Of a stretch of 64,000 bases of DNA, positions 40,454 to 61,094 are shown piece by piece (within the stretch, counting starts at the first letter, position 1; each line of letters opens with the position of its first letter). A program made the position numbers and the translations under genes. The DNA comes from Acutalibacteraceae bacterium. Lineage in GTDB: Bacteria; Bacillota; Clostridia; Oscillospirales; Acutalibacteraceae. The stretch spans positions 7,832 through 71,831 of the forward strand of contig JAZLLJ010000030.1 of NCBI GenBank assembly GCA_045598065.1, read 5' to 3'. The notes under the pieces were generated by a model, which saw only the letters and a list, made by a program, of their open reading frames with translations, did not search any database and was not told where the DNA came from.

Positions 40454-40520
40454 ACGAAAAACGCCGTTTTTCGGGCTTTCTTCGAAAGAGACTCTTTCCC
40501 GCAAAATGAAAATAAACGCA

Positions 40521-40557
40521 AAAAACCGCCCGTATTCTTGCGAATACGGGCGGTTTT
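40521..40557. terminator. bidirectional terminator between the convergent epimerase gene and the T4SS-like operon
   Basis: AAAAACCGCCCGTATTC-ttgc-GAATACGGGCGGTTTT. Confidence 0.85.
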
Positions 40558-41332: not shown

Positions 41333-41371
41333 AACGGCTCTCTCTTTTCTAAAAGTTCGCGAATATACTGA

Positions 41372-47131: not shown

Positions 47132-47226
47132 TCCTCCAAGTTTCCGCGTTTTGCAAGGTTTCTCTAACCAAAAAAGGGAAAAACGCGGTGAAAGGTTACA
47201 TTATTAAAGAGAATATTTTCCGATAC

Positions 47227-47532
47227 TTATCCGTTATCAATATGCAAAAGCCCTGCAAATCCGGTCATTTCAAATACTTCCATCACCATACGGTTAACAC
47301 GGCGAAGGACCAGTTCTCCCTCTCGCTTACGCATTTTGATGTGGAGATTTTTAAGAATGCGCAGACCGGCGGAAGAAACGTACTCCATTCCTTCCATATT
47401 CAAAATCACACGGGAAAACCGTTCGGAAACGTTTTCAAAAATCGTTTCCATTTCCTTTGACGTTACCGAATCCAGTCGGCCCATCAGAATGAGTTCTCCT
47501 TCATCCCCTCGGTTAATCAGTTTTACTTTCAT
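47227..47532 (-). CDS. STAS-domain protein (anti-sigma-factor antagonist, SpoIIAA/RsbV-like)
   Basis: About 101 aa from MKVKLINRGDEGELILMGRLD. Conserved phospho-serine context MEYVSSAGLRIL. The ORF extends to 47571, but the internal Met gives the normal STAS length. Confidence 0.8.
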   Translation of the reverse strand: MKVKLINRGDEGELILMGRLDSVTSKEMETIFENVSERFSRVILNMEGMEYVSSAGLRILKNLHIKMRKREGELVLRRVNRMVMEVFEMTGFAGLLHIDNG

Positions 47533-47571
47533 AGCAGGAAAAGAGAACCTCCTTTCTGTCCTTTGTTTCAC

Positions 47572-50500
47572 TTAACCACGTTTCGAATTATAATGCGCCA
47601 GTTCTTCAATCGTAATGGCAATTACGGTCTCACCGTAATCTTTCATACGATCAATCGGCGACACATCGCCAAGGCGCTTGGCTTCCATAACCAAAAGCGA
47701 CATAATATCGAAGCCGGATTTCTTCTTTTCCTCGTCGCCTTCGGCAGCGGAATCCGGTTTTTCCGCCGGTTTTTCTTCCGGTTTTTCCGTCGGTTTTTCT
47801 TCCGGTTTTTCCGTCGGTTTTTCTTCCGGTTTTTCCGCCGGTTTTTCTCCCGGCTTTTCTTCCGGTTTTTCTGCCGCCGGCGTCTCTGCTTTTTCGGCAA
47901 CAGGCGGTATGTCGTTGGCCTCGTCTCTATCCACAGTCACTGTGCCGGAAGCGCCCGGAATCATACCCGGCACCTCATACTGCGCCACCGTAGGCTCCGT
48001 TGCCAATCCGCCGGAAGCATTCGTTCCACGCTCCACTGCCAAAGCGGCATCCACGGCGCGGCGAATCTCCTCCTGCATAGCATCGTGGCTGAATTTAGAC
48101 AAAAGTTCCGCCAACAACCGCTCTGTTTCGCCGGAAGAAGCCGGTGCCTGCACCACAACAGGTTGCATCAAAGGTGTGGCCGACGCCGCGATAAGCGCCG
48201 GATCCACCGTCGGAACGACCGGAGCGGAAACCGCGTTGCTCTCGGGCAGGTCGAACTCCTCTTCCAGCTCGATTTCTTCTGTAAAGGCAACCGCCTTTTC
48301 AGAAGAACGTTTAGTTTCTTCGGCGGCAAGTTCTTCTTCCTCGGTAATCTCTTCAAATACCACGTGCGCACGAGCTTCTTTTTCAACGATTTCCTCTTCC
48401 ATAACCTTCTTCACGTGGACATTCTGTTCGTGAATTTCACGGGAATCGCCCATAAAGTCATCCCATGCGGCTTCACCGTCGTCATCACGGAAATAACGGG
48501 AAATATACTCCCGTTCTTTGAACATCGCCACAACGTCCTCCGGCACTGCCACCTTAAAGGTGGAACGGCTTTGGGGCGACATAATAGCAAATGCCTGACC
48601 GCGAGGAGCAGAAATAATTTCTTCCTGCTCACTTTCGTTGATTCCGCCCGCTTTTTCATACAGCGTGCACAAATCTTCCATATCGTTCGGCGCCAAAGAG
48701 AACACAAAACTGTATTGGCAGGCATTAATGATAGCCGTGGATTTGCGAGCAATTTCTTCCGAGCCCACAAAGTCCTTGATGTTCTGGGTAATGACAATCT
48801 GCATACCGTTGTATTTACGAATACGCTTCGCCAACTGATACATAAAGTCAAGCGCGACCGGGAATTTGGTATCAATAAACACGTGTGCCTCATCAATAAC
48901 TACCACAATTTTACGCTTGACACCGTAACGCATATTGTAGTCGCGGTTTTTGATGATCTCGTTGTCGATGTATTTCAGCACCAAAAGCATCTGTGCATTG
49001 GCAATGGTGCCGTTACGGTTGGCAAGCAAGCTTTGGAAGTTGAACACCGTGAAGTTCTCGTCGGTCGTAACCGTAGACGGACCGTTCCAAATGTTGGCGT
49101 TGCGCCCACCGGCAGAGAATTTCGCAATGTAGTTCATCAGCGTACGAAGCATAGTGCGAATATACTCGTTGTCGGTGGTCTGGAACTCCGACAGCACCGC
49201 ATCGTACAAGTCATCAAACACCGGGTAATCTTCCGGGCGCAGACGGCTCAAATCCGTTTCGGCGGTGATACCCATATTGGTATACATCCGGTCGATAATG
49301 GAGTTTAAGTATTCCATCGCATCGCGGTCGCAATCCGGCAGAATCTGGCGGAAGAACTCCTCTAAGAACTGCAGGTGTGTCGCATAACTGCCCGAAACCG
49401 TCTCCGTTCCCTCTTCGTCATCATCCAAAGCGGTGATGATATGGAACGGGTTGAGTCGCCCATATTGCGCGTTGCCCACGTTGATAAACTTGCCGTGGAG
49501 GTTGTGCGCCAATTCGGTATATTCATTTTCCGGATCAAGGATAAAGATTTTGCTGTCATCTGCAGCCAAGTTAGCAAGCAGACTCTTGGTGGCATAGGAT
49601 TTACCGGAACCGGATTTACCCACAATCACCATATTGGAGTTAACGCGCTCGGAATCGCGGCGGAAGAAGTCAATAAACACCGGCACGCCGTCCGATTGAC
49701 CGAGTTTAATACCCTTTTCATCCGAAATGTGGGCGAAAATCCACGGATAGGAAGCCGCAACAGAGTTGCTGGGAATTCCGCGGCCGTCTTTGTGCATAGG
49801 ATCCCACGCGCTGATTTGACTGCCCACAAACGCATGGACTTGGTCAAAGTCCATATTGTTAAGGCGCAGGTTGGATTCACTGTAAAGTCGACGGACCGTG
49901 CGTTTCATATTGGTGATGTTGGCAAGCGACGACTCTTTCAATTTGGGATCGTCGTTAAGCACGCACGTTTGGTTGATATCGTAGCAAGTCACGTAGATGT
50001 TGACCGAAAGAAGGGTTTCGTTATCCCCTTGCAGTGTGGCCAGTAAATCGCTTAACGTCTCAATGTGTTCTTGCAGTTCAATACGTTTGGAATCGATACC
50101 GGTAGCACGATATTGGGCGCGCAGTTCTTGCAGCGAGAAGTCGATGGCACGCACCGATTTATTGCGGTCCATCGGCGTGCATTTCACCACCACTTTGGTG
50201 GCCGGCATAGACATTACACCGGCAAGCCACGCATCGCCGACAACCGACGGATAGTTGACCACTCGCATATTGTGGGTAACAATTTGGTTAACGAGAACCG
50301 TCCGGGCTTTCATCTGCACGTACTGTGGCATCGCCCATTTGGCATAATCCTCGGGTTTCACGTTGTCAATCTCTTTTTCGTCAAAATCCAACGCGTTGGA
50401 ATATTTAAGGAACACTGCCAATTCTTTGTTTCCGAGGCGGTGAACTTTGAGTTCGGCGTTACGCAAAAGGTCCAGCGCAGAATGCACCGCATTGTTCAGT

Positions 50501-51465
50501 TGATTGCGATCGCTGTCGAACAGCACGACGTAATAGAACGGCACCACCACTTTGTCACCGAAGCAGAGATTGCGCAGGTCGTTGATTCGATCATACAGCA
50601 CCTCCACACGGGCTTTCATCTCATCTTCCGAGAGAAAGCCTTTTTCGTAGGACTGTTTCAGTTCGTCCAATTTGTCATACTCATGGTCCAAATGGCTTTC
50701 AAAATCGACCGGTCGCTCAATCTTTACAATGTTGGCGGCAAATTCCGGCGGCAAAGAACGCAGCACACGCCCTAAACCGTTTTCAATGGAGTTTGCGCGG
50801 CGAGAAGGCGAGAAGAAACGGAATTCCACCGGATCAATCTCAATCGCCGCACCGTAATATTTGTTGCCGTATTTGATAAAATTGTCCCGAATATCGGTAA
50901 ACGCTATAATCTCTTCCATCTCAAAAGAGTTAGCGGAAGGCGCGTTTTTCTTTTTCGCTTTTTCGCGTTTTTTCGCGGCACTTTGGTTGGCACGTTTCAG
51001 CCAAATCGCATCTTTTTCCTCATCGGACACGTTTTTGTCCTTCAGGATTTTGTCATCCGCTTTGCGCTCGGCTTTTTCGGCTTTGAGACGCGCCTTGCGG
51101 TTCAACTCGTTTTCCGGCGCCTGCTGTCCGTCCACAAACAGTTCCTCAAACGCCGCTTCTTTCATTCCCTTGTCGTTTTGTAAACGCAAAGAAGCGTCGT
51201 CATAGGTGCGCTCGTAATGGTGGCGATACCCGAAATGCCGCAACATATGGAGCAAAAAGATATAGTTCGGCTCTTTGTCTAAACGCACCAAAAGGATTGC
51301 TGCCAAAAACAGCAATCCTGCGGCAATAAACAGTCGTCCGGGGATGGTCGAAAGCAGAATGAGTAAAATCAGTCCCGCTGCCACAACACCAATGGCAACG
51401 TCTGCAATTCGAACGCCCTTAAAGAACTCGACTTGTACTTTTGTTCTGCCCGGAATCAGGCGCAT
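47572..51465 (-). CDS. VirB3(PrgI)-VirB4-like T4SS ATPase fusion with a ~330-aa acidic repetitive C-terminal tail
   Basis: 1297 aa. Two N-terminal TM helices, then the IEIDPVEFRFFS VirB4 N-domain. Walker A GKSGSGKS is encoded at 49597-49621 and Walker B VVVIDEAHVF at 48877-48906. The tail is rich in E/A/P with (PEEKPxEK)n. Confidence 0.85.
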   Translation of the reverse strand: MRLIPGRTKVQVEFFKGVRIADVAIGVVAAGLILLILLSTIPGRLFIAAGLLFLAAILLVRLDKEPNYIFLLHMLRHFGYRHHYERTYDDASLRLQNDKGMKEAAFEELFVDGQQAPENELNRKARLKAEKAERKADDKILKDKNVSDEEKDAIWLKRANQSAAKKREKAKKKNAPSANSFEMEEIIAFTDIRDNFIKYGNKYYGAAIEIDPVEFRFFSPSRRANSIENGLGRVLRSLPPEFAANIVKIERPVDFESHLDHEYDKLDELKQSYEKGFLSEDEMKARVEVLYDRINDLRNLCFGDKVVVPFYYVVLFDSDRNQLNNAVHSALDLLRNAELKVHRLGNKELAVFLKYSNALDFDEKEIDNVKPEDYAKWAMPQYVQMKARTVLVNQIVTHNMRVVNYPSVVGDAWLAGVMSMPATKVVVKCTPMDRNKSVRAIDFSLQELRAQYRATGIDSKRIELQEHIETLSDLLATLQGDNETLLSVNIYVTCYDINQTCVLNDDPKLKESSLANITNMKRTVRRLYSESNLRLNNMDFDQVHAFVGSQISAWDPMHKDGRGIPSNSVAASYPWIFAHISDEKGIKLGQSDGVPVFIDFFRRDSERVNSNMVIVGKSGSGKSYATKSLLANLAADDSKIFILDPENEYTELAHNLHGKFINVGNAQYGRLNPFHIITALDDDEEGTETVSGSYATHLQFLEEFFRQILPDCDRDAMEYLNSIIDRMYTNMGITAETDLSRLRPEDYPVFDDLYDAVLSEFQTTDNEYIRTMLRTLMNYIAKFSAGGRNANIWNGPSTVTTDENFTVFNFQSLLANRNGTIANAQMLLVLKYIDNEIIKNRDYNMRYGVKRKIVVVIDEAHVFIDTKFPVALDFMYQLAKRIRKYNGMQIVITQNIKDFVGSEEIARKSTAIINACQYSFVFSLAPNDMEDLCTLYEKAGGINESEQEEIISAPRGQAFAIMSPQSRSTFKVAVPEDVVAMFKEREYISRYFRDDDGEAAWDDFMGDSREIHEQNVHVKKVMEEEIVEKEARAHVVFEEITEEEELAAEETKRSSEKAVAFTEEIELEEEFDLPESNAVSAPVVPTVDPALIAASATPLMQPVVVQAPASSGETERLLAELLSKFSHDAMQEEIRRAVDAALAVERGTNASGGLATEPTVAQYEVPGMIPGASGTVTVDRDEANDIPPVAEKAETPAAEKPEEKPGEKPAEKPEEKPTEKPEEKPTEKPEEKPAEKPDSAAEGDEEKKKSGFDIMSLLVMEAKRLGDVSPIDRMKDYGETVIAITIEELAHYNSKRG
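47750..47880. repeat. 12/24-bp in-frame tandem repeat inside the VirB4-like tail
   Basis: CCGGTTTTTCCG/CCGGTTTTTCTT units repeated about 10 times, encoding PAEKPEEKPTEKPEEKPTEKPEEKPAEKP. Confidence 0.85.
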
Positions 51466-51509
51466 AGGGGTTCACCTCCCAAAAGGTTCGGGGTTTATAA
51501 CGGGGTTTA

Positions 51510-51545
51510 CCCGACCGCGCAAAACACTTTTTTTGCGCGGTCGGG
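51510..51545 (-). promoter_or_regulatory. strong intra-operon stem-loop between the VirB6-like and VirB4-like genes
   Basis: CCCGACCGCGCAAAA-n6-TTTTGCGCGGTCGGG (15-bp stem). No T-run on the minus strand, so a partial terminator or mRNA-stability element is more likely than a full stop. Confidence 0.5.
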
Positions 51546-51556
51546 GATGCTAAAAT

Positions 51557-54280
51557 TTATTTTTTATTTTGGTTTCCCGGAAGTGGCTTCGGATTACTCA
51601 GCGGATCGTAAATTCTCTTCGGCGGAGACTTTTTCTTCGGAACATCCACCGCCGCATTGCTCGCTTGAACGTTGCCGTTGTTCGCCGGGACGGCGTTGTT
51701 GTTCGCCGGGACGGCGTTGTTGTTCGCCGGGACGGCGTTGTTGTTCGCCGGAACAGCGTTGTTGTTCGCCGGAACAGCGTTGTTGTTCGCCGGAACAGCG
51801 TTGCCGCCGCCTTGGTTTCCACCACCGACATTACCGCCTCGGTTTCCACCGCCGACATTACCGCCTTGGTTTCCACCACCGACATTACCGCCTTGGTTTC
51901 CACCACCGACATTACCACCTTGGTTTCCACCGCCGGCTACGTTGCCGCCGTTTCCGCCTTGGTTTCCGCCCTTCGGCTGCGCAGGCTTACTCGGTGCCGG
52001 AGCAGGTTTCGATTGGTCCGCACCCACGGCATCCTTACCGTAATACACACCGCCGAGGCCTTTTCCGTCATGGCCTTTTTTGTAGGCATCGTTCTCGGCT
52101 TCGGTATACTTTTTGCCGTTTTCGGCGCGGCCGACGTACTGTTCACCGCGTTCGTTTTTGCCAAGACCTTTCAGCATGGACTGGCGTTCCGACTCGGTAA
52201 ACGCATTGCCCATATCGTCTTTACCAACGTAGGCCTCACCGTCGGCATTAGTGCCAAGACCATAGTCTTGCTGACTCTGCGGAAGCGGTTGTTCGCCTTC
52301 GACATTCGTACCGTTTTCATTGTTCAAAGAGGTAGTGCTTTCCGTCTGGTTCTCGTTTCCGTTGCCCTGCTGATTACTCGGAAGCACGCCGTTTGTATTG
52401 TTGTCTTCGGTATTATTAGCCGTGTTCGTACCGTTTTGGTTAGTGTTATCCGTGGTGGTGTTGTTGTTATTATTATCCTTTTGCTGGTTGTCGGGCAAGC
52501 CATTAGAGTTGTTGTTATTGTTATTGTTGTTGTTTTCGGCTTTCTTCGCAACAGCACCAGCAGCGGCCGCACCGGCAGCGCCGGCAACACCGGCGCCGAC
52601 TTTTTGCGCCAATTTCGCCGCTTTTTCTTTCTTCGCAGCTTCTTTCTTATCCTTTTCGCGATCTTTTTTCGCCTGTTTCTTCTCGCCGAGCGGATCATCC
52701 GGATCCTCGCCGCCGAAGTGCTTACCGAAGTGACGGCCGAACTGACGGTCAGCCAAATCGTTGGTATTCGATGCCTGGATAGCGGCAAAGCCCGCGTTGT
52801 TCGCCAAGATACCGGTGAGGATGCCGCTGAAACGGCTGACACCTTCCATCATACCGGTGATAAGTAAACCTTTGGCAACCACGTTTAACGTGGCGGAAGG
52901 AAGCAGAATCAAATTCGAATCCATCACCATAGGAACGAACAAAATGACAAGACGCATGGGAATAATGTTGCCGAACACGCCGAACATCTGGATAATCATA
53001 GAAGTCGTCCACTCCTTAAAACGACGACCGTCATCCAAAGACATAGTCGCCGCAAGAGGAGGCGCAATAACATAAAGTCCGACAATGTTTACAAGACGTG
53101 TGCAGCAGTTGAGGATACAACGGTACAAGTTTTTCAGTACCCAATATCCCACAAACCAAATCATAAAGTAGGAAATACCGCCAAGCTGATAACGGAAAGC
53201 GGATTTCACGTCGCTAAACGAATAAATGCTCTTTTCGCCGGTATAGAACGCACCGCGCAATCCATCAGAAACACTGGGATTCTTGTTAAAGTTATCATTC
53301 TTCGCCGCATTCATCGTTCCCATAAGGAACACCACGCGGTCAAGGGATGCGCTGTCGGCAGAAGTATATTCGTTTTTGTAACTCTTCAGTGCACGGAAAC
53401 TGGCATCCGTTCGGAGAATATCCATAATATCGGTAAGTGCCTGCGAAGTCTCCGGATAATAGAGATCCATGCTCAACTCGTTTTCGGGGTTGGCCGCATA
53501 TACCAACCGTTCGAGCTCACTTTGCCAGGTATGTATCGGTTTTTGCTCTTCGTCCCGGGTGGGATACACCAAATCGAATATCCCTTTGTCCTGCAAATAG
53601 AGCAGTTTAGGACGAATTTCGTTATAACAAGTATTCAAATTGTAACGATGGTTATACGTGGCGTTCATAGAATACTCATCAATGGTCGTGAGAATATCGA
53701 ACATCACGGCACGATCCTCGTCCGTAAATTCAATCTCTTGCTTTTGAGTAAGCGCTTTATTTTGGTCAAACACGTAACTGACACGCTCGATAAGGACGTT
53801 TGTAAAGGTCATCGTCACCGACATAACAGCGGTCAACATAACCATCACAAACAAACTTTTCAGCATACCGCCGATAATCTGTCCCAGCGACTGCTGCTGT
53901 TTGTCGTTGATATCGAACATCTTTCGCACCACGGCGATAATGGTGAACACAACGGCAAGGACGGCGCCTATCATTACCATTCCCCAATAGATGCCGTTGA
54001 TGGCCTCATTTTCAAAGAACAGGTTGGTCAGATAGGTAAAATCCTCTTTCATCTGCACCTTGCTGATGCCTGCAAACACCGCAAACACCGCGTATGCCGC
54101 TTTGATGATATCGCACCAGGCCCAGGTCAAGTAATAGCAAGCAATTCCAAGGCCTTCTTTGATCGCGTCAAGGATGGCATTACCGATGGCATCCGCGATA
54201 CTGTCAAATACATCGCCGATAACATCAACGATGGAATCAAACACATCGAAAATGCCCATTATTCCCAAGGATCGGAACAT
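51557..54280 (-). CDS. VirB6-like polytopic membrane protein (907 aa) with a ~400-aa Asn/Gly/Gln-rich low-complexity C-terminal region
   Basis: About 8 hydrophobic helices in the first ~500 aa with a large loop, and a position between VirD4-like and VirB4-like genes. The tail has a poly-Asn run, (GGNQGGNVG)n and (NNAVPAN)6. The VirB6 call rests on architecture only. Confidence 0.6.
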   Translation of the reverse strand: MFRSLGIMGIFDVFDSIVDVIGDVFDSIADAIGNAILDAIKEGLGIACYYLTWAWCDIIKAAYAVFAVFAGISKVQMKEDFTYLTNLFFENEAINGIYWGMVMIGAVLAVVFTIIAVVRKMFDINDKQQQSLGQIIGGMLKSLFVMVMLTAVMSVTMTFTNVLIERVSYVFDQNKALTQKQEIEFTDEDRAVMFDILTTIDEYSMNATYNHRYNLNTCYNEIRPKLLYLQDKGIFDLVYPTRDEEQKPIHTWQSELERLVYAANPENELSMDLYYPETSQALTDIMDILRTDASFRALKSYKNEYTSADSASLDRVVFLMGTMNAAKNDNFNKNPSVSDGLRGAFYTGEKSIYSFSDVKSAFRYQLGGISYFMIWFVGYWVLKNLYRCILNCCTRLVNIVGLYVIAPPLAATMSLDDGRRFKEWTTSMIIQMFGVFGNIIPMRLVILFVPMVMDSNLILLPSATLNVVAKGLLITGMMEGVSRFSGILTGILANNAGFAAIQASNTNDLADRQFGRHFGKHFGGEDPDDPLGEKKQAKKDREKDKKEAAKKEKAAKLAQKVGAGVAGAAGAAAAGAVAKKAENNNNNNNNNSNGLPDNQQKDNNNNNTTTDNTNQNGTNTANNTEDNNTNGVLPSNQQGNGNENQTESTTSLNNENGTNVEGEQPLPQSQQDYGLGTNADGEAYVGKDDMGNAFTESERQSMLKGLGKNERGEQYVGRAENGKKYTEAENDAYKKGHDGKGLGGVYYGKDAVGADQSKPAPAPSKPAQPKGGNQGGNGGNVAGGGNQGGNVGGGNQGGNVGGGNQGGNVGGGNRGGNVGGGNQGGGNAVPANNNAVPANNNAVPANNNAVPANNNAVPANNNAVPANNGNVQASNAAVDVPKKKSPPKRIYDPLSNPKPLPGNQNKK
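51668..51803. repeat. 21-bp in-frame tandem repeat, 6 copies (3+3 subtypes)
   Basis: GTTGTTCGCCGGGACGGCGTT x3 then GTTGTTCGCCGGAACAGCGTT x3, encoding NNAVPAN x6 on the minus strand. Confidence 0.9.
51811..51970. repeat. 27-bp in-frame tandem repeat, about 5 copies
   Basis: CTTGGTTTCCACCACCGACATTACCGC units with few substitutions, encoding GGNQGGNVG repeats. Confidence 0.9.
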
Positions 54281-54318
54281 ATCTTAACGCTCTCCCTTCT
54301 TTGTGGATTTGTGCGAAA

Positions 54319-55275
54319 TCAACGCACACGCAATTTCTTTCTGGAAACAACAAGATACGCAATGAGTCCTCCGAGCGTCGCCAACAACAGCAGGGCAAAC
54401 GCGACAGCGGACAGGTTAAAATAAATCAAAATGCGGAAATTATAGGTAGTTTCATTGCCTGCGGCATCCGTGAGAATCAGGTGGTAGACACCGCTTTGTG
54501 TCAATTTGTCTTTCTTTTGAATTTCCCGATTGCCGAGCAGGATTTTAATGGAAACATCCGGCTCCAAATCGGAAATATCCACCGGGCCTTTGGCCACGTT
54601 GTTTTTCACCGCTTCCAATTTCAATGTCGGCGGCGTGTGATCCACTTCAACGCTAAGGGTGTACGGATGGTCAATCACATCACAGCGATAACTGATTGTG
54701 TATTTTCCCTCCGCAGACATATCCGCCACGTTAAAACTAAACGGAGCCTCCGCTCCATCGAGACGGGCATCTGTAATAGTAAACCCCTCAGGAACCATAA
54801 AAGTTTCAAGAAGTCCGGTTTTTTTTGCTAAAATTGTGAAGCGGAGGATTTGTTCGGCGCGAGTACCAACACCCGTAGCCAACAGAATGTATTCTCCGGT
54901 TTCTTCGATGTGGTCATAATCCACATCCTTCACCGTTTCTCCGTCACGGGTAAGTGTCGGAGTGACGCCGGCGGGAATTTTTATTTTCACCGGTTCCGTC
55001 GTGTACATTCCATCCGCCACAGAAGCATAAAAACTACCTTCCGGCGTAACGGTTTCTTTGGTATAGCAAAACATTCCCTCGTTTTTATCGTACCAGGTCG
55101 TTTCGTTGACACAAACAAGCGTGTAGCCGGTTTCCTCGTCCAGAGGTTGGTCGGTATCGGGGTTGATTTGTTCGATGGTGGTGGAAACCGCCGCTGCATT
55201 GAATCCAAGCGACATACACAGCACAACCGTCAAAACTATCGCAATAAGCTTTTTCACGTTCTCCACCCCTCTCAC
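54319..55275 (-). CDS. hypothetical surface protein (318 aa): signal peptide, beta-rich ectodomain, C-terminal TM anchor
   Basis: N-terminal LIAIVLTVVLCMSLGFNAAAV, C-terminal LSAVAFALLLLATLGGLIAYLVVSRKKLRVR. Its start overlaps the stop of the upstream VirD4-like gene by 4 nt. Confidence 0.65.
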   Translation of the reverse strand: MRGVENVKKLIAIVLTVVLCMSLGFNAAAVSTTIEQINPDTDQPLDEETGYTLVCVNETTWYDKNEGMFCYTKETVTPEGSFYASVADGMYTTEPVKIKIPAGVTPTLTRDGETVKDVDYDHIEETGEYILLATGVGTRAEQILRFTILAKKTGLLETFMVPEGFTITDARLDGAEAPFSFNVADMSAEGKYTISYRCDVIDHPYTLSVEVDHTPPTLKLEAVKNNVAKGPVDISDLEPDVSIKILLGNREIQKKDKLTQSGVYHLILTDAAGNETTYNFRILIYFNLSAVAFALLLLATLGGLIAYLVVSRKKLRVR

Positions 55276-57269
55276 TGCTTCAGCACGGTAGCGTTTCGTG
55301 CCTTGATATCATAAAACGCTTCATCCGCTCGGAAAATGTGAGAACGAATCTCGTCCAAATCCATCCGACCGAACTGATAGAAGTCGCATTTGTATGACGG
55401 GGTGTATTTGGTCATCAGCGGATAGTTACCGAACGTCACGATAATGGCGTTACCGGTCGAGGTTTTATTGTTAAGTTTTTGCAAATCCGACGGATAAATA
55501 AGCGGACGAGTCTGCAACTGGTTACTGACGTTCATATCGCCGTCTTTCGAACCGAGACCGGCGGAAGTCGAAGTGGTACGCACCGTTTTGTTACCGCACA
55601 ACTCCGAGAACTCTTTACAAGTGCCGATATCGTTCGAACCGATAAACATTTTCAGCGCACAGTTGGATTTCACAACGTCCGCCACGCCCTCGCCGTAAAT
55701 ATTGTTGAGCTGGGCGTAACTCTGCACCACCATATTGAACCAAATCTTACGGCTACGACCGACGGTAATCATCTTGTCGAATTTCTCGATACGCGGCATA
55801 TTACCGAACTCATCGAGGATGAAATACACGTTGCGCGGCAAAGACAAATCCTCGCGCGCGGACGCGACTTTAATTAAACCCTTATAGAGACTCAGGATAA
55901 ACAACGACGCCAATCCGTGTCGAGTATCCTTTTCGTCCGGGATTTTAAGGAACAACGCCGTGGGACGTTCGGCGAATTGTTCGGCGCGGATATCCGTGGC
56001 CGAAGTCAAGCCGCAAATGCCGCGGTCGTTGAAAATATTCAATTTATCGAAGGTAATAGACATATAGCTGGAAAGCGTTTGATCCGCCGCCGCCAACACC
56101 TGGCGAGACAGCGACACCGCTTGGGACAGTTTGCTTCTGCCCTCAAAATAGCGTTTTAAATGGATATAGTTTTTCTCACTGTTAGTGAGAATCTTGTTAA
56201 GATTAAAGAAATTGAATTTCTCCTTGGTCATGCCGAGGCGTTTATCTTGGCTGTCTTCGAGCATGGCAATGCAGGTCGCCAAAATGATAGAACGGGCACC
56301 TTTTTCCCACAAGGGATCTTTTTCGTTGGTAATGGGGCAAATACCCGAAATGAGGTCGTTTAAGTCCTCGTACATCTCATCGTAAATGCGCTGTTTCGCC
56401 ACAGAAACGTCGTCCTGACAGTGGCGAAGGTCCGTATACGCTTTGCCGTCCCACTCGCACCACACCTCACCGGCAGGCTCGTCATCCATCCGCTTAAGGG
56501 ACGGATAATCATCAAGGCTGTCGCGGTGAGCAAGGATATCCTTGCCCATCTCGGCGTACTGCTGATACATATCCCAAACGGATTCCAACGGATTCCAACG
56601 GGAGGAAGAATAGGTGTCGCGCAAATCGAGCACCATCACGTCATAACCGCGGGATTTCAGGAATTTGGAGTGCATATCGAACAACTCGCCCTTCGGGTCG
56701 GTCATCACCATGCTGGAACCGCAGTTGGTCGCGCCGATTAACTGAATCATGGGGTTAATAAACGTGGTGGTTTTACCGGAACCGGTAGAACCGATAACAA
56801 GCGCATGCGCACCGGACATCATATTGATGTGCATTTGCCCTTTTTTGTCCACAATCGCACGCAACGGCGCGCCGTCTTTCTTTGCATTCGGCAGCATTTC
56901 ATAGGTCAACGGGGTAAACAACTTATCCCGTTCTTTTTCGGTCATATAGCGGCTGTTCTCCAACACGGATTCCACGTCGCCGTTTTTACCTTTTCCCATA
57001 ATGTTGTGACCGCGGCCGAAGTTGCTGCCCATAAAGACCAAAAGCAAAACCAGCGCCACAATCACAAAGCCGGTCAGCCACGTACCGATGGACACCAAAT
57101 ATTTCCAGTAGAGCACGAACGATTCGCCATGAATGATACCTCGTGCGTTGGCAATAATATTACGCAACAGAAAGCCCAAAAGGCCTGCTCCGAACAATGC
57201 AATCGCGCCATACGCAATCAACTTGTCCAGAGGCAGGCTTTTAAACCAATCTTTGAGTTTGTTCATCAT
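55272..57269 (-). CDS. VirD4/TraG-type type IV coupling protein
   Basis: 665 aa. Two N-terminal TM helices. Walker A IGSTGSGKTT is encoded at 56766-56795. The FILDEFGNMPRIEKF...GRSRKIWFNMVVQSYAQLNNIYG block is typical of T4CPs. Confidence 0.85.
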   Translation of the reverse strand: MMNKLKDWFKSLPLDKLIAYGAIALFGAGLLGFLLRNIIANARGIIHGESFVLYWKYLVSIGTWLTGFVIVALVLLLVFMGSNFGRGHNIMGKGKNGDVESVLENSRYMTEKERDKLFTPLTYEMLPNAKKDGAPLRAIVDKKGQMHINMMSGAHALVIGSTGSGKTTTFINPMIQLIGATNCGSSMVMTDPKGELFDMHSKFLKSRGYDVMVLDLRDTYSSSRWNPLESVWDMYQQYAEMGKDILAHRDSLDDYPSLKRMDDEPAGEVWCEWDGKAYTDLRHCQDDVSVAKQRIYDEMYEDLNDLISGICPITNEKDPLWEKGARSIILATCIAMLEDSQDKRLGMTKEKFNFFNLNKILTNSEKNYIHLKRYFEGRSKLSQAVSLSRQVLAAADQTLSSYMSITFDKLNIFNDRGICGLTSATDIRAEQFAERPTALFLKIPDEKDTRHGLASLFILSLYKGLIKVASAREDLSLPRNVYFILDEFGNMPRIEKFDKMITVGRSRKIWFNMVVQSYAQLNNIYGEGVADVVKSNCALKMFIGSNDIGTCKEFSELCGNKTVRTTSTSAGLGSKDGDMNVSNQLQTRPLIYPSDLQKLNNKTSTGNAIIVTFGNYPLMTKYTPSYKCDFYQFGRMDLDEIRSHIFRADEAFYDIKARNATVLKQ

Positions 57270-57293
57270 AAAGATGCCCCGCTTTCTGTCAAA

Positions 57294-57325
57294 CGCTTAG
57301 GCGAGAGTTTCCCCTCGCCTAAGCG
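57294..57325 (-). promoter_or_regulatory. intra-operon stem-loop between the 672-aa gene and the coupling-protein gene
   Basis: CGCTTAGGCGAG-n8-CTCGCCTAAGCG (12-bp perfect stem), followed on the minus strand by only TTT. Confidence 0.5.
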
Positions 57326-57362
57326 GAATTTTCAAATGTATTTTATCCGGTCGATTCTCCTG

Positions 57363-59381
57363 TCAGCGATAAAAAACGTTTTTTTGACCGGACACGGTTT
57401 TCGCGGCGTTATCCATTTTGAGGGTTCCGTTTAACACCGTGGTTCCTTCGTTGTTGAAATAACTACCGGAACTACCGAAAAAGTCTGCCTGGGCTGCCAT
57501 TTTTTCAAGTCCGTCAATGGTCGCATTGTTGGACTTATCATTAAGAATTTTCGGTCCGGGAGTGAATTTTTTTGCATAAAAACCGGCAAAAATACCGGCG
57601 CCACCCCGGTTTTGCACCTCTCCGTCTTCAATCGAAATACCGTTCGGCAACACCATAACGCCCATATTCAGCACCGTTGCCCCTTGGTACACGTACAGAG
57701 GTTGGCCGGACTCACTTCCCATATACAAGGCGGCTTCATTCATTACAATCAATTCGCCGCCGCAATCGTCATACGACGTGGGATCGTCCGTAGTTTTATT
57801 TTCCGCCATATAGTCGCGGATGACTTGGTCACGGTTGGCAATGAAATCATCATAGTCCTCGCGCAACTTTGCCGTATCTTCCTTCAGTTTCTGTTCCTCT
57901 TTTTCCAAGTCTGCAAGAGCCGCCTCAATGCTGGCTCTATCCGTGGGAGAAGCATACTTCAGAGAGGCATTATACGCCAGACGTCTTGATTGGATGGTGG
58001 CATACGGAAGAGAAAACTGCGTTCGCCACGATTCTTCATATTCCGCCAGTTTTTCTTCGTATTTTTCCGTGGCTTTTTTCACGTTGTCGCGGAAGAAGGT
58101 ACTGGAAAATTCCACAGTACTGCCATAGTTATTGATACACCCTTCCGAACCGTTGTCGGTGCATATCGCGGAGTCATTGTTGATGACAATCGTACCGCAG
58201 TTTTCAATCGTACCGCGGTTGTACAAAATACCGGACACCGTCAAGGTGGCACCGGGTTCAATCAACAACCGCGTGCCTTCGTCGATAACGGTATTGCTTT
58301 TGGCGTTGTACGTCGAACCTTTGGTAATGGTGTAGTCTTCTTTAATATCCATCATTTCACGGGAAGTACCGTAGTACAGCGCAAAGTTACTGGTACAAAG
58401 AGGCGGAATTCCTATCAACGGACAGACAACAGCAACACCGGCACCGTCATAACAAAGACCGTATGGAGAAATTTCACCTTCGATACAGAAGGGTAACTGC
58501 ACTTTATCGGGATCGACAAGTTTCGTACCAAATCCGAAAAATCCGGGTTCATTTTTGTTGTCAGCAGTAAGCACAGCACACTCAACATTCGTTAAATACG
58601 TGCCGTTGCCCCAATCCAAATCTAAAGAACCAACAACAATAGGAGACGACATCACACTCAGACTTTTGCCGTCGCCCTTGAAGAGCACGATAGGCGTTCC
58701 TTCATCGGTGTATTTTTTTACATCCATACTCAATTTCGAGTTGTTCTCGGCGGTATAAAACACGTCCGAATCAATCGAAACACCGGAAAGATCGGAGATT
58801 TTCTTTCCTTTCAGCGGTCTAGCAAACGAAAAGTCCCCTGAGCCGGATATCCAAAAGCGCTGCGCCGCCGGGCTTGTCGCCCAGCTTTCTTTGCTGTTTC
58901 CGGCCACGTTATCGCGGAAAGCATCCAACAAGTTGCTGTTGTTGGCATTTGCTACAAAATAGTCGTCAAAACTGTTGTAACCGCTGATAGCACTTTCTTG
59001 CGTTTCCTGCAGATATTTCTTATATGCGGTCAGCATATCAGCAGGCATATTCGCCACGTTACGGCTGGAGATACCGTCGAGATAGAACGAACGGAAAGTG
59101 GATTCTCTTTCGGTTCCCGACAGGGCATACGTCGTTCCGTCGGCAGCCTCCCAGCAGATGTACACCGGCACGTTTTTGCCCACAAAGGCCTTTAAATCGT
59201 TTTTGCCGGTCACACGTTTCCATTCCCATACGGTGGTTCTGCCTCCATTCGCAGAATCGGTTGCTCCCGCCGATGCCGGAACGGCATAGACGGCAAGCAT
59301 GGATGCCGCCGTAAGGCAGGCAAGCGAGAAGGCGAGCATATGTCGCATATTCGATTGAATTCTCTTGAAAACGGCTTTCAT
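57363..59381 (-). CDS. hypothetical secreted protein (672 aa) with a central coiled-coil segment and Gly/Asn-rich beta-helix-like stretches
   Basis: Signal peptide MLAFSLACLTAASMLAVYAVPASA. Segment NRGTIENCGTIVINNDSAICTDNGSEGCINNYGSTVEF. Coiled-coil-like KKATEKYEEKLAEYEE...LADLEKEEQKLKEDTAKLREDYDDF. No family recognised. Confidence 0.65.
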   Translation of the reverse strand: MKAVFKRIQSNMRHMLAFSLACLTAASMLAVYAVPASAGATDSANGGRTTVWEWKRVTGKNDLKAFVGKNVPVYICWEAADGTTYALSGTERESTFRSFYLDGISSRNVANMPADMLTAYKKYLQETQESAISGYNSFDDYFVANANNSNLLDAFRDNVAGNSKESWATSPAAQRFWISGSGDFSFARPLKGKKISDLSGVSIDSDVFYTAENNSKLSMDVKKYTDEGTPIVLFKGDGKSLSVMSSPIVVGSLDLDWGNGTYLTNVECAVLTADNKNEPGFFGFGTKLVDPDKVQLPFCIEGEISPYGLCYDGAGVAVVCPLIGIPPLCTSNFALYYGTSREMMDIKEDYTITKGSTYNAKSNTVIDEGTRLLIEPGATLTVSGILYNRGTIENCGTIVINNDSAICTDNGSEGCINNYGSTVEFSSTFFRDNVKKATEKYEEKLAEYEESWRTQFSLPYATIQSRRLAYNASLKYASPTDRASIEAALADLEKEEQKLKEDTAKLREDYDDFIANRDQVIRDYMAENKTTDDPTSYDDCGGELIVMNEAALYMGSESGQPLYVYQGATVLNMGVMVLPNGISIEDGEVQNRGGAGIFAGFYAKKFTPGPKILNDKSNNATIDGLEKMAAQADFFGSSGSYFNNEGTTVLNGTLKMDNAAKTVSGQKNVFYR

Positions 59382-59447
59382 ACTACATCATCCTTCCGCT
59401 TGCCTGCCGTTATTTCACGGATTCGGCAAACAATTTACTCTCAAAAG

Positions 59448-59852
59448 TTACAGTTTGCTGGCGTCAATGACGTCGCCGCCGCTGACGTTGTCGTTCACCC
59501 ACTCGGCGAGGAGAGGCGTGACCAGGTTCAGGACAAGGATCAAGACGAAGATCAGCACGAAGCCGATAACCGCGTTTTGCAGGTGAGATTTCGCTTTCTC
59601 ACGATCCTGCGGCTCTTCCGCTTTGGCGAATTTCACACCGAGGATGATGCAGTACAGAGCGCCCACGGCAACGACGAGGACGAGGGCCGCCGTCATCAAC
59701 GTGCGGAGAAGGTTAACGATCGGGTCGGTAACTGCTTCCAGGCCCTCACCTTCCGCCAGAACGGCGAAGCCCATGAGCATCGCGGTGCCCATAATGGCAG
59801 CGAGACGCGCGGTCAGTTGTTTTGCGGTGAATTTTTTGCTGAGTTTTTTCAT
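59448..59852 (-). CDS. VirB2/TrbC-like pilin-type small membrane protein (134 aa)
   Basis: Signal-like N-terminus, then two hydrophobic helices separated by a short charged loop (KFAKAEEPQDREKAKSH), the canonical T4SS pilin topology. RBS GGAGGAAC. Confidence 0.55.
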   Translation of the reverse strand: MKKLSKKFTAKQLTARLAAIMGTAMLMGFAVLAEGEGLEAVTDPIVNLLRTLMTAALVLVVAVGALYCIILGVKFAKAEEPQDREKAKSHLQNAVIGFVLIFVLILVLNLVTPLLAEWVNDNVSGGDVIDASKL

Positions 59853-59920
59853 TGTTTGTTCCTCCTAAGAAGTTTTTTTATTTGATTTGCATTGCTGCAA
59901 AAGAAACCAAGTGAATTCGT

Positions 59921-60367
59921 TTACATCATCGGTGCCTGTTTTTCCGGCACGTTCAGTTCCGGCTCATTTACCGTCACCGACACAAGATTGACGTCTTTCA
60001 GTTCGTTTTCGGCGATGCGTGTAAGCTCGTCGGTGAATTTGCCGTTTTCCAAATCGTGGCCGATTTCCTCAGGCGAGCGGTCAACCAACGCCTCAAACGC
60101 CGGCAACTCTTTCATCTGAGTGGCAAGCGCTTCCACGTCCGTTCCGGCAGGTAGACGGTTATTCTGTGCCAAACGGCCGACGGCGGCAGCAGCGGTCAAA
60201 TCGCGCATGTCGCTTTTCGACGCGGTATTTCCGAGCGATTTCAGCTCTTTTTCCGCCTCACGGCCCTTTTCAACGGCCTTGACGGTCGTCACCATGCTCT
60301 CGACCAGCTCTTTCGGAGCGCCGGCCGGTTCGCCGATGGCTTTCGATACTTTCTCTTTCGGTGTCAT
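59921..60367 (-). CDS. hypothetical soluble helical protein (148 aa), tightly coupled to the ECF sigma gene
   Basis: Starts 4 nt after the sigma stop codon. No TM segment and no HxxxCxxC zinc anti-sigma motif. Confidence 0.6.
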   Translation of the reverse strand: MTPKEKVSKAIGEPAGAPKELVESMVTTVKAVEKGREAEKELKSLGNTASKSDMRDLTAAAAVGRLAQNNRLPAGTDVEALATQMKELPAFEALVDRSPEEIGHDLENGKFTDELTRIAENELKDVNLVSVTVNEPELNVPEKQAPMM

Positions 60368-60371
60368 TCCA

Positions 60372-60833
60372 TCATCCCTCTAACTGCGTTTTGAGCGCTT
60401 CTCTTGCCCGCATTAGCGTGACCTTTATCGTGTTTTCCGGTTTGCCGAGAATCTCGGCAATTTCCTTAATCTTCAGGTCTTGTAGGTAGAACAGCGTAAT
60501 GACTTCCCGTTGGGCATCGGGAAGTTTTTGGATAGCGCGCCGCAAATCGAGAATTTCATCGTTTTCGGTGCGTTCCCCTTTGTCGTCGGTCAACCCTTCA
60601 TCCAACTCCACGTCGTACGTCCGGCCGGACAGCATATCTTTCGCGCAGTTGATGGTCACGCGAATGAGCCAGGCCTTGCGATGTTCCTCGCTTTCAAAGG
60701 AGCGTTCCTTCTTGAAATACGCGAGGAACGTCTCGGAGTAAACATCTTCCGCGTCAGCGGGGTTGCGAACATAGCGCATGGCAATTTTATACACCATGTC
60801 GGAATACGTGCGGACGATTTCTTCGCCGTTCAT
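60372..60833 (-). CDS. ECF-type (group IV) sigma-70 family sigma factor
   Basis: Region 2 (AEDVYSETFLAYFKK...KAWLIRVTINCAKD) and region 4 HTH (REVITLFYLQDLKIKEIAEILGKPENTIKVTLMRAREAL). The ORF opens at 60902; the start was chosen at MNGEEIV. Confidence 0.85.
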   Translation of the reverse strand: MNGEEIVRTYSDMVYKIAMRYVRNPADAEDVYSETFLAYFKKERSFESEEHRKAWLIRVTINCAKDMLSGRTYDVELDEGLTDDKGERTENDEILDLRRAIQKLPDAQREVITLFYLQDLKIKEIAEILGKPENTIKVTLMRAREALKTQLEG

Positions 60834-61094
60834 AAACAACACCCGCTCCTTTCGGGAAAGGTTACAACCCATCCAAATTTTTTGCGCAGCTTTTGGGACC
60901 ACAGTATCATATATACGCGCACATGATAGCCCAATTTCCCTTATTTTCGCATATTATATAAGAAAAGTCAACCCCTCTTTACAAGAAATAGTATAAATTT
61001 CTTCCATAATTCACCGTTTTTCGACCGACACCGGGGTTTTCGGAATATTTTTTCTCCTCTTTGCATAGCGTAAGACCAAAAAGGAGGCTTTTTT

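What the first reader, a model, noticed from the sequence alone, without database searches (positions are those of the whole stretch)
47227..60902. ECF sigma factor, non-canonical partner and STAS protein embedded in a secretion operon: a possible partner-switching control circuit with no kinase in sight
The operon opens with an ECF sigma gene (60372-60833). Four nucleotides later comes a 148-aa soluble helical protein. It has neither the zinc anti-sigma motif (HxxxCxxC) nor a TM segment, so if it is the anti-sigma factor it is of an unrecognised type. Further down, between the VirB4-like gene and the giant protein gene, sits a STAS-domain protein with the conserved phosphorylatable serine context (YVSSAGL). 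In established systems STAS antagonists work with a kinase/anti-sigma factor and a PP2C phosphatase. Examples are SpoIIAA/AB/E, RsbV/W/U, and Bordetella BtrS (ECF sigma) with BtrU/V/W, which controls type III secretion. Here no HATPase-type kinase is visible anywhere in the window. The only PP2C phosphatase is the membrane-bound one at 9122-10603, about 37 kb away.
Basis: partly seen in the sequence, partly recalled or inferred. Interest (0 to 1): 0.65.

Follow-up and report, generated by a model that had tools for sequence, protein, structure and literature searches.

The report
Two regulators in a Clostridial T4SS operon
A secretion-machine operon of an uncultured gut Clostridium carries two separate control devices, a sigma factor with its own small partner protein and a phosphorylatable STAS switch protein whose kinase and phosphatase sit in the same gene cluster in related bacteria but not here. 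This layout resembles the control of type III secretion in Bordetella, and I found no report of it for type IV secretion.

Summary
A minus-strand operon (60833 to 40562) opens with an ECF sigma gene and a 148-aa soluble helical protein (p148). It then encodes a pilin, VirD4, a VirB4-like ATPase, a STAS protein with the YVSSAGL motif and a giant PLAT protein. No HATPase-type kinase lies on this contig.

Across 80 related clusters the two modules travel independently:
- p148-like genes occur in 23 of 24 sigma-bearing loci and in none of 55 loci where no sigma was detected, so p148 is the sigma's own partner.
- STAS follows VirB4 in 40 of 42 clusters, with or without sigma.
- At least 26 related clusters also encode an RsbW-type kinase, usually with a membrane PP2C.

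This cluster is a reduced version. Its STAS remains under strong purifying selection (dN/dS 0.07). The only related kinase is a PP2C-kinase fusion elsewhere in the genome, and it is not specific to the T4SS. The PP2C in the window is not the cluster type.

A two-block promoter motif (TGTAAY-N16-GGGTRT) precedes the sigma gene. It also precedes about ten genes elsewhere for large, signal-peptide-less orphan proteins, which are candidate cargo. The closest analogue is the Bordetella BtrS/BtrA plus BtrU/V/W system.

The parts
60943..60971 (-). Housekeeping (sigma-A type) promoter-like site, TTGACT-17-(TG)GAAAAT, about 110 nt upstream of the sigma start
   Evidence: Equivalent TTGACT-17-TATAAT sites lie upstream of the sigma gene in most related loci. 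By consensus only.
60839..60866 (-). Two-block motif TGTAAC-N16-GGGTGT ending 5 nt before the sigma start codon. It is the candidate promoter read by this sigma (autoregulation).
   Evidence: The motif is 16-fold enriched on the operon strand of sigma-bearing loci. There are 6 exact copies in this genome against 0-1 in shuffles.
60372..60833 (-). ECF-type sigma factor (153 aa)
59921..60367 (-). p148, the sigma's cognate small soluble helical partner (inferred anti-sigma, no known family)
59448..59852 (-). VirB2-like T4SS pilin
   Evidence: PF18895 9.8e-12; NF045849 60.7 bits.
57363..59381 (-). 672-aa protein of unknown family (function not examined here)
   Evidence: no Pfam hit. Weakly conserved in related loci.
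55272..57269 (-). VirD4-type coupling ATPase
   Evidence: PF02534 7.9e-51. 422 relatives found.
54319..55275 (-). 318-aa conserved cluster protein of unknown family
51557..54280 (-). 907-aa conserved cluster protein with no Pfam hit (an earlier scan note calls it a VirB6-like polytopic membrane protein; not tested here)
47572..51465 (-). VirB4-like ATPase (1297 aa)
   Evidence: PF19044 6.9e-22.
47227..47532 (-). Single-domain STAS protein (101 aa) with invariant Y-x-S-S-[AS]-G-[LI]-R. It is the constant element of the cluster's partner-switching module.
47190..47200 (-). TGTAACCTTTC, identical to the -35 block upstream of the sigma gene. This 11-mer occurs only twice in the 1.6-Mb genome. No matching -10 block follows.
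47144..47188 (-). Hairpin in the STAS-PLAT intergenic leader (CCGCGTTTT...AAAACGCGG)
   Evidence: L013 shows a change on both arms that keeps the pair. Seen by eye in 3 sequences.
42173..47131 (-). 1652-aa PLAT-domain giant protein
40562..42142 (-). Two 256-aa proteins that end the operon. In relatives a p256b-like gene is followed by the kinase and the PP2C, which are missing here.
40520..40557 (-). Intrinsic terminator-like hairpin plus T-run that ends the operon
   Evidence: Sequence read.
9122..10603 (-). Membrane SpoIIE-type PP2C. It is a possible trans-acting phosphatase but is not of the T4SS-cluster type.

Best explanation
The operon encodes a chromosomal type-IV-secretion-like machine of gut and rumen Clostridia; no relaxase domain was found among its gene products. 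The machine is controlled by two separable modules.

**Module 1, transcription.** The ECF sigma factor and its co-transcribed partner p148 form a sigma/anti-sigma-type pair.
- The sigma gene is read from a housekeeping promoter and, I infer, from its own promoter (TGTAAY-N16-GGGTRT) that abuts the start codon.
- The same motif sits upstream of about ten genes elsewhere in the genome. These encode large, signal-peptide-less, fast-evolving orphan proteins, which I take to be candidate cargo.
- p148 holds the sigma through its conserved N-terminal helix until it is removed. Removal by degradation or by export is speculation.

**Module 2, the machine itself.** The STAS protein is translationally linked to VirB4 and is a core part of the apparatus.
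- In most lineages an RsbW-type serine kinase phosphorylates its invariant serine, and a membrane-sensor PP2C removes the phosphate. Both are encoded in the cluster in those lineages.
- By analogy with Bordetella BtrU/V/W, this switch gates secretion or the stability of machine parts rather than releasing the sigma.
- In this genome the cluster has lost, or never had, its own kinase and phosphatase. STAS then either works unphosphorylated or is served in trans by the 964-aa PP2C-kinase fusion on contig C37.

**Shown:** gene content, co-occurrence patterns, motif statistics and purifying selection.
**Inferred:** all protein-protein contacts, phosphorylation, promoter use and cargo status.
For: **STAS is a core machine gene.**
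- It lies -16 to +176 nt after VirB4 in 40 of 42 related clusters, and its Ser motif is invariant.
- In the kinase-less clade its dN/dS is 0.068, like VirD4 (0.066) and VirB4 (0.055).

**The kinase and phosphatase belong to the cluster in relatives.**
- Cluster-linked RsbW-type kinases occur in 9 loci upstream of the machine genes and in 17 genomes downstream of PLAT or next to STAS. A PP2C usually accompanies them.
- The kinase lies directly next to STAS in the genomes of the sigma-bearing loci L055 and L070.
- The cluster PP2C shares its TM sensor domain with the cluster's LytS-type histidine kinase (E = 2e-12).

**p148 belongs to the sigma.**
- p148-like ORFs occur in 23 of 24 sigma-bearing loci and in 0 of 55 loci without a detected sigma.
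- In about 13 loci the gene starts within roughly 35 nt of the sigma stop codon, or overlaps it.
- Short forms of 69-84 aa keep only the N-terminal helix and the C-terminal tail.

**The motif behaves like this sigma's promoter.**
- It is 16-fold enriched in sigma-bearing loci.
- In relatives second copies lie upstream of STAS, of the pilin gene and of large cytoplasmic proteins.
- This genome has 6 exact copies against 0-1 in shuffles, plus 6 one-mismatch look-alikes. Of these 12 sites, 10 lie 40-99 nt before the start of an ORF of 296 to 1333 aa (several run off contig ends); the other two face contig ends.
- The promoter is conserved in G001 although the downstream protein is only 37% identical.

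**Precedent.** In Bordetella, BtrS and BtrA control transcription while BtrU/V/W control secretion (PMC7498569).
Against: - There is no direct evidence for any interaction.
- The one available test of sigma-p148 binding was AF2 on a natural read-through fusion from L055. It gave pTM 0.55 without a PAE map and an unusual sigma2/sigma4 arrangement, so it is inconclusive.
- p148 has no resemblance to any known anti-sigma domain.
- No VirB4-STAS fusion exists among the 150 best-scoring proteins listed in a search of 1.84 billion representatives.
- The site upstream of PLAT in this window has only the -35 block.
- The genome holds other sigma-70-family genes, so assigning the motif to this sigma rests on autoregulation logic and on enrichment.
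- The C37 fusion has its own STAS partners and is also present in a same-genus genome that lacks the T4SS. Its action on the T4SS STAS is therefore a guess.
Confidence: 0.5

Rival explanations
1. p148 is a kinase-less anti-sigma factor, and the STAS protein is its antagonist. STAS binds p148 and frees the sigma.
For: All three genes lie in one operon. p148 is tied to the sigma. No kinase lies in the window.
Against: STAS is kept in 40 of 42 clusters, most of which have no detected sigma or p148. STAS has the full kinase-substrate motif, and in relatives a classical RsbW-type kinase lies beside it. p148 and the kinase coexist in L025 and L084.
Confidence: 0.08
2. Canonical partner switching in trans. 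An RsbW-type kinase (here the C-terminal domain of the C37 964-aa protein) is the real anti-sigma of this ECF sigma, and unphosphorylated STAS releases the sigma. p148 has another role.
For: The C37 kinase domain is 41-47% identical to the cluster-encoded kinases, against 35% for C49 and about 21% for SpoIIAB. In L025 the genes run kinase-PP2C-sigma in one string, and L084 has the same order with other ORFs between the PP2C and the sigma.
Against: Kinase and STAS occur in many clusters without any detected sigma. The C37 module has its own two STAS proteins and is present in a same-genus genome without the T4SS. In the Bordetella precedent, none of the three partner switchers acts as a negative regulator, and they control secretion rather than releasing BtrS.
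Confidence: 0.12
3. p148 is not an anti-sigma. It could be a sigma-dependent accessory such as a co-activator, a chaperone or adaptor for the large proteins, or simply a secreted substrate.
For: In L066 the p148-like ORF sits behind a large cytoplasmic protein under a sigma-type promoter, not next to the sigma. In seven loci it follows the pilin gene. It evolves faster (dN/dS 0.19) than the sigma (0.035). It has no anti-sigma fold match.
Against: Near-perfect co-occurrence with the sigma, and tight coupling to the sigma stop codon in about 13 loci, are the usual signature of a cognate anti-sigma.
Confidence: 0.17
4. The STAS gene is a decaying remnant in this lineage, because its kinase and phosphatase are gone.
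For: No cluster kinase or PP2C is found here or in the closest relative G001, and the more distant Acutalibacteraceae relatives G002 and G003 have only the fused form elsewhere in the genome.
Against: dN/dS is 0.068 and the motif is intact.
Confidence: 0.03

Closest known systems
Bordetella btr locus (BtrS ECF sigma, BtrA/BspR secreted anti-sigma, BtrU PP2C, BtrW kinase, BtrV STAS), which controls the Bsc type III secretion system
   Same: An ECF sigma sits next to a soluble, non-canonical antagonist. A separate STAS/kinase/PP2C set is tied to a secretion machine. The sigma also drives an effector gene (bteA) far from the apparatus locus (PMC7498569).
   Different: This is a type IV-like machine in a Gram-positive spore former. 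STAS lies inside the apparatus operon directly behind VirB4. The kinase and PP2C are absent from this particular cluster. p148 has no detectable similarity to known proteins. Nothing has been shown experimentally.
Bacillus SpoIIAA/SpoIIAB/SpoIIE and RsbV/RsbW/RsbU partner switching
   Same: The STAS protein has the phosphorylatable serine motif. Relatives have HATPase_c_2 kinases and SpoIIE-family PP2C phosphatases.
   Different: The module occurs mostly without any sigma gene nearby and is fixed to a secretion ATPase gene. The output is probably not sigma release.
Vibrio fischeri SypA/SypE, and MlaB of the MlaFEDB transporter
   Same: These are single-domain STAS proteins whose output is not a sigma factor (papers listed). 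That SypA acts on a non-transcriptional target and that MlaB binds and regulates an ATPase is from my own knowledge; I did not read those papers.
   Different: There is no sequence-level relation beyond the STAS fold. Binding of this STAS to VirB4 is only a hypothesis.
FlgM/sigma-28 of flagella
   Same: A small, partly disordered soluble anti-sigma is encoded with an export machine (my own knowledge).
   Different: Export of p148 is pure speculation, and the sigma class is different.
T4SS modules of Mollicute ICEs (Mbov_0395-family pilin-like protein)
   Same: The pilin matches NF045849 above its cut-off.
   Different: No relaxase or integrase domain was found among the operon products. The cluster sits between the housekeeping genes potABCD and yabP-yabQ-divIC.

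Membership tests
ECF (group 4) sigma-70 factors | Only regions 2 and 4; matches ECF profile models | tested here: met
   Pfam r2 and r4_2; TIGR02937 101.7 bits against a cut-off of 42.9; best PDB match SigW.
ECF (group 4) sigma-70 factors | Autoregulatory two-block promoter with an AAC-type -35 block upstream of its own gene | tested here: met
   TGTAAC-N16-GGGTGT lies at 60839-60866. The same architecture is seen in 17 related loci and is enriched 16-fold in sigma-bearing loci. This is in silico only.
ECF (group 4) sigma-70 factors | Assignment to a numbered ECF group | not testable with these tools
   No ECF-group HMM library was available. The best NCBIfam subfamily hit, TIGR02954, is far below its cut-off (108.9 against 188.5).
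Anti-sigma factor antagonists (SpoIIAA/RsbV/BtrV, single-domain STAS) | STAS fold with a conserved phosphorylatable Ser in a D/S-S-x-G-L context | tested here: met
   PF01740 8e-14; TIGR00377 58.9 bits against 53.45; S-S-[AS]-G invariant in 41 orthologues.
Anti-sigma factor antagonists (SpoIIAA/RsbV/BtrV, single-domain STAS) | Cognate HATPase_c_2 serine kinase encoded with it | tested here: not met
   There is none on the window's contig. The feature is met in at least 26 related clusters.
Anti-sigma factor antagonists (SpoIIAA/RsbV/BtrV, single-domain STAS) | Actual phosphorylation and partner binding | not testable with these tools
   Needs Phos-tag or mass spectrometry and binding assays.
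Class I / zinc-binding anti-sigma domains (p148) | HxxxCxxC motif, or a match to a profile or fold of an anti-sigma domain | tested here: not met
   No Cys. No Pfam or NCBIfam hit. Best Foldseek PDB match E = 1.3. The profile search of PDB sequences found only chance hits.
Cognate anti-sigma factor in the functional sense (p148) | Co-transcribed and co-inherited with its sigma | tested here: met
   23 of 24 against 0 of 55 loci. The gene is adjacent to or overlaps the sigma stop codon in about 13 loci.
Cognate anti-sigma factor in the functional sense (p148) | Binds and inhibits the sigma | tested here: inconclusive
   AF2 of the natural read-through fusion gave pTM 0.55 with no interface read-out.
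Type IV secretion systems | VirB4 ATPase, VirD4 coupling protein and VirB2-like pilin in one cluster | tested here: met
   PF19044, PF02534 and PF18895/NF045849.
Conjugative elements (ICE or plasmid T4SS) | Relaxase and integrase with the T4SS | tested here: not met
   No such Pfam domains were found among the operon products. The flanks are potABCD and yabP-yabQ-divIC-yabR. The rest of the genome was not scanned for relaxases.

The most novel reading that the evidence does not exclude
The sigma/p148 pair is a secretion-coupled feedback loop of the FlgM or BtrA kind. In this reading p148 is itself exported by the T4SS-like machine through its conserved C-terminal tail (...PEKQAPMM). This would free the sigma to boost both the apparatus and a scattered regulon of about ten large, fast-evolving cargo proteins, two of which carry ADP-ribosylglycohydrolase domains. 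The STAS phospho-switch would gate the VirB4 ATPase. If so, this would be a regulated, non-conjugative protein-delivery T4SS of Gram-positive gut commensals, with its effector set identifiable from a promoter motif.
Probability: 0.12. Interest if true: 0.85.

Novelty: new variant of a known kind. Interest (0 to 1): 0.62.

Why it matters
Type IV secretion in Gram-positive bacteria is known almost only as conjugation, and in the searchable literature I found no regulation of it by partner switching.

Here a widespread chromosomal T4SS-like machine of gut and rumen Clostridia, with no sign of DNA-transfer genes, carries a STAS phospho-switch as a fixed part. In one lineage it also carries an ECF sigma with a new kind of partner protein.

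The sigma's promoter motif gives a direct, testable way to list what the machine may deliver. In this genome that list is about ten large orphan proteins.

Cultured carriers exist, including Ruminococcus sp. FC2018, Ruminococcaceae bacterium FB2012 and Lachnospiraceae bacterium LC2019. The circuit can therefore be tested at the bench.

Tried and rejected
- Rfam on the sigma leader gave nothing.
- Fold search of the p148 model against the PDB gave no significant hit. The profile search against PDB sequences gave only chance hits.
- Sigma-p148 complex:
  - No multimer tool was available, so I used natural same-frame read-through fusions (L023 with TAA, L055 with TGA).
  - Two alignments were misaligned and discarded (A4, A5). 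A6 was used.
  - The result was inconclusive.
- Search for VirB4-STAS fusions with a STAS profile against 1.84 billion representatives found none among the 150 best-scoring proteins listed.
- The window's PP2C as the STAS phosphatase is not supported:
  - Its closest relatives are PP2Cs of generic STAS-kinase-PP2C modules (2e-112 to 4e-116). T4SS-cluster PP2Cs that lie downstream of PLAT in Lachnospiraceae-type clusters score only 2e-33 to 2e-45, although the cluster PP2Cs of L084, L025, L057 and L083 score about 1e-84.
  - It lacks the cluster-type sensor domain.
- The C37 PP2C-kinase module as a dedicated T4SS regulator is not supported. It is present in a same-genus genome that lacks the T4SS, and it has its own STAS genes.
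- The claim that this is the only ECF sigma of the genome was dropped, because other small sigma-70-family genes exist on C32 and C33.
- The idea that the motif next to the start codon is coding sequence was rejected. It lies in different reading frames in different clades.
- A shared C-terminal export signal between p148 and the large proteins is suggestive only. It is kept as speculation.


Full report
**What is there.**
- The minus strand between 60833 and 40562 carries one gene string. In order: ECF sigma, a 148-aa protein (p148), a VirB2-like pilin, a 672-aa protein, VirD4, a 318-aa protein, a 907-aa protein, a 1297-aa VirB4-like ATPase, a STAS protein, a 1652-aa PLAT giant and two 256-aa proteins.
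- Gaps between genes are short, and no convincing minus-strand terminator lies inside the string. A clean hairpin plus T-run follows the last gene.
- The flanks are housekeeping genes: potABCD on one side and yabP-yabQ-divIC-yabR on the other.
- The genome is a 1.6-Mb, 99%-complete assembly of a spore-forming Clostridium. Its nearest relatives are labelled Acutalibacteraceae.
The only coordinate correction is the STAS start, ATG 47532.

**The cluster is a widespread accessory system.**
- VirD4 finds 422 relatives in species-representative genomes, and 80 loci were fetched. They come from Acutalibacteraceae, Lachnospiraceae, Ruminococcus and others at 65-92% identity.
- Gene order is conserved.
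- A VirB4 orthologue is absent from 80 other genera of the same family, including the same-genus representative.

**STAS is a core gene of the machine.**
- In 40 of the 42 loci that extend past VirB4, a STAS gene of about 99 aa starts -16 to +176 nt after it.
- The motif Y-x-S-S-[AS]-G-[LI]-R and the EVxEhTG segment are invariant.
- The family is tight. Only 12 clusters at 50% identity reach E <= 1e-30 among 1.84 billion representatives. The orthologue-level hits are single-domain proteins, and there are no VirB4 fusions.
- Between this window and L013 (a lineage without cluster kinases), STAS has dN/dS 0.068. VirD4 has 0.066 and VirB4 has 0.055.

**The missing kinase and phosphatase are in the cluster in relatives.**
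- HATPase_c_2 kinases of 135-160 aa (PF13581, 8e-26) and membrane SpoIIE-type PP2Cs lie upstream of the machine genes in nine loci: L025, L032, L046, L053, L057, L063, L083, L084 and L087.
- Whole-genome searches of 39 carrier genomes found a kinase of this subfamily in all but two.
- In 17 of them the kinase is downstream of PLAT on the operon strand. It lies next to a p256b-like gene, a response regulator, a PP2C or the STAS gene itself. Examples are ...STAS-PLAT-p256-kinase-PP2C in G006 and G007, PLAT-kinase-STAS in the genome of L055, and PLAT-STAS-kinase in that of L070.
- The cluster PP2C of L025 shares its N-terminal multi-TM sensor with the cluster's LytS-type histidine kinase (E = 2e-12).

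**This genome is a reduced version.**
- No kinase of either HATPase type lies on the contig.
- The genome has three RsbW-type kinase domains:
  - SpoIIAB, in spoIIAA-spoIIAB-sigF.
  - A 662-aa PP2C-kinase fusion followed by a STAS gene.
  - A 964-aa 5TMR-LYT/HAMP/PP2C/kinase fusion followed by an HD_4 protein, a STAS-APH fusion and a STAS protein (domains).
- The kinase domain of the 964-aa protein is 41-47% identical to the cluster kinases. The cluster kinases are 45-56% identical across subgroups. The values for C49 and SpoIIAB are 35% and about 21%.
- That module also exists in the same-genus genome without the T4SS and in G004, so it is not dedicated to the T4SS.
- The PP2C at 9122-10603 has a 99% orthologue in G001. 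Its nearest relatives are PP2Cs of generic STAS-kinase-PP2C modules, and it lacks the cluster-type sensor.
- Who phosphorylates this STAS, if anyone, therefore remains open.

**Sigma and p148 form their own module.**
- A sigma gene precedes the pilin gene in only 16 of the 48 loci with enough upstream sequence, and in 24 of the 80 loci overall. The other loci mostly carry a LytS-type kinase and a response regulator instead.
- p148 is a narrow, fast-evolving family.
- A profile of its N-terminus finds long (138-199 aa) or short (69-84 aa) forms in 23 of 24 sigma-bearing loci and in none of the 55 others. One locus starts too late to judge.
- Most copies start within about 35 nt of the sigma stop codon. 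In seven loci the gene follows the pilin gene. In L066 it ends an operon for a large cytoplasmic protein under a sigma-type promoter.
- Two parts are conserved: an N-terminal helix (P-x-A-P-x-x-L-V...G-R-x-A-E) and a short C-terminal tail ending in a hydrophobic residue.
- The AF2 model is a confident helical bundle (residues 19-125) with a disordered tail. It has no structural or sequence relatives in the PDB.
- The only binding test I could run, AF2 on a natural read-through fusion, was inconclusive.

**A promoter motif and a probable regulon.**
- Upstream of the sigma gene there is a housekeeping-type promoter about 110 nt away.
- Ending 5 nt before the start codon there is a two-block motif: TGTAAC-N16-GGGTGT here, and TGCACC-N16-GGGTAT in the Ruminococcus-type loci.
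- The blocks fall in different reading frames in different clades, so the motif is not coding sequence.
- The degenerate motif occurs 23 times on the operon strand of sigma-bearing loci against 3 times in the others (16-fold per kb), and 4 times on the opposite strand.
- In relatives, second copies lie upstream of STAS (L025, L037, L061, L072, L078), of the pilin gene (L070) or of large cytoplasmic proteins (L066, L088).
- In this window the 11-mer TGTAACCTTTC occurs only twice in the whole genome: upstream of the sigma gene and in the STAS-PLAT spacer. The second site has no matching -10 block.
- Genome-wide, TGTAAY-N16-GGGTRT has 6 exact copies against 0-1 in shuffles, plus six close look-alikes.
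- Of these 12 sites, 10 lie 40-99 nt upstream of the start of an ORF of 296 to 1333 aa, usually with a visible ribosome-binding site; several ORFs run off contig ends. The other two sites face contig ends. These proteins have no signal peptide by eye, and the seven I scanned had no Pfam domain apart from ADP-ribosylglycohydrolase in two.
- One family has three paralogues here and a 37%-identical homologue with the same promoter in G001. It is absent from the same-genus genome that lacks the T4SS.
- I read these proteins as candidate cargo co-regulated with the machine. This is inference.

**Comparison with what is known.**
- The logic matches the Bordetella btr locus: an ECF sigma (BtrS), a soluble exported antagonist (BtrA), and BtrU/V/W controlling secretion rather than sigma release. 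BtrS also drives an effector gene (bteA) far from the apparatus locus (PMC7498569).
- I found no paper linking STAS partner switching to type IV secretion.
- Notes from other agents of this scan on other genomes reached the same view of the STAS/kinase/PP2C set. I read them after my own analysis, and they are not independent proof.

**Verdict.**
There is a partner-switching link, but STAS is wired to the machine and to an RsbW-type kinase, not to p148.
- The sigma/p148 pair is a separate, lineage-specific transcription module with its own promoter motif and a probable regulon.

Noticed in passing
own genome outside the window: C2:12659(-), C2:12897(+), C67:5206(-), C72:2085(+), C85:923(-), C87:4407(-), C87:4523(+), C16:7955(-), C16:1051(-), C19:229(-), C96:7586(+): Sigma-type promoter motifs lie 40-99 nt upstream of large orphan proteins without signal peptides (296 to 1333 aa as read; several are cut by contig ends). 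Several sit on short contigs, and two pairs are divergent. Two of the proteins carry N-terminal ADP-ribosylglycohydrolase domains. They are candidate cargo of the T4SS-like machine.
   Followed up: partly
window 47144-47188 (-): A long hairpin lies in the STAS-PLAT intergenic leader. L011 and L013 keep it, and L013 shows a change on both arms (GCCGCGT/ACGCGGC versus GCCGCTT/AAGCGGC). It may be a structured leader or a processing site in front of the PLAT gene.
   Followed up: no
window 57294-57325 and about 51500-51545 (-): Strong GC-rich hairpins without T-runs lie in the p672-VirD4 and p907-VirB4 spacers. They may be stabilisers or attenuators inside the operon.
   Followed up: no
own genome C37:5098-10059: A separate signalling module: a 964-aa 5TMR-LYT/HAMP/PP2C/RsbW-type kinase fusion, an HD_4 protein, a STAS-aminoglycoside-phosphotransferase-like fusion (393 aa) and a STAS protein (98 aa). 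It is conserved in related genomes with and without the T4SS.
   Followed up: partly
L025:5858-7438 and L053:6179-7480: The cluster-linked PP2C phosphatase and the cluster-linked LytS-type histidine kinase share a homologous N-terminal multi-TM sensor domain (E = 2e-12). This suggests one signal feeds both transcriptional and post-translational control.
   Followed up: partly
L053, L046, L032, L063, L117, L120, L130, L131: The RsbW-type kinase gene repeatedly sits next to a 258-aa response regulator whose C-terminal half matches no Pfam family. In sigma-less clusters this regulator may be the kinase's partner.
   Followed up: no
L027, L028, L029, L031, L083, L087: Loci carrying this Clostridial cluster are labelled Bacteroidaceae, Barnesiella or Paludibacteraceae in their record titles. 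This is probably mis-binning or mislabelling of the assemblies.
   Followed up: no
window 59921-59960 (p148 C-terminus) and the C-termini of the C2, C16, C58 and C67 large proteins: These proteins have acidic, Pro/Gln/Asn-rich C-terminal tails that end with Pro plus hydrophobic residues (PEKQAPMM, QPNVSMPM, QMNIPGQS, NNPSI). This may be a shared export signal, but the evidence is weak.
   Followed up: partly
window 60834-60866: The distance from the -10-like block to the sigma start codon is fixed at 5 nt in the two clades where sigma begins MN-/MD-. Sigma-dependent transcripts of the sigma gene would therefore be leaderless or nearly so. The same (A/G)TGAAC sequence follows the -10 block at other sites, where it is not a start codon.
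   Followed up: partly
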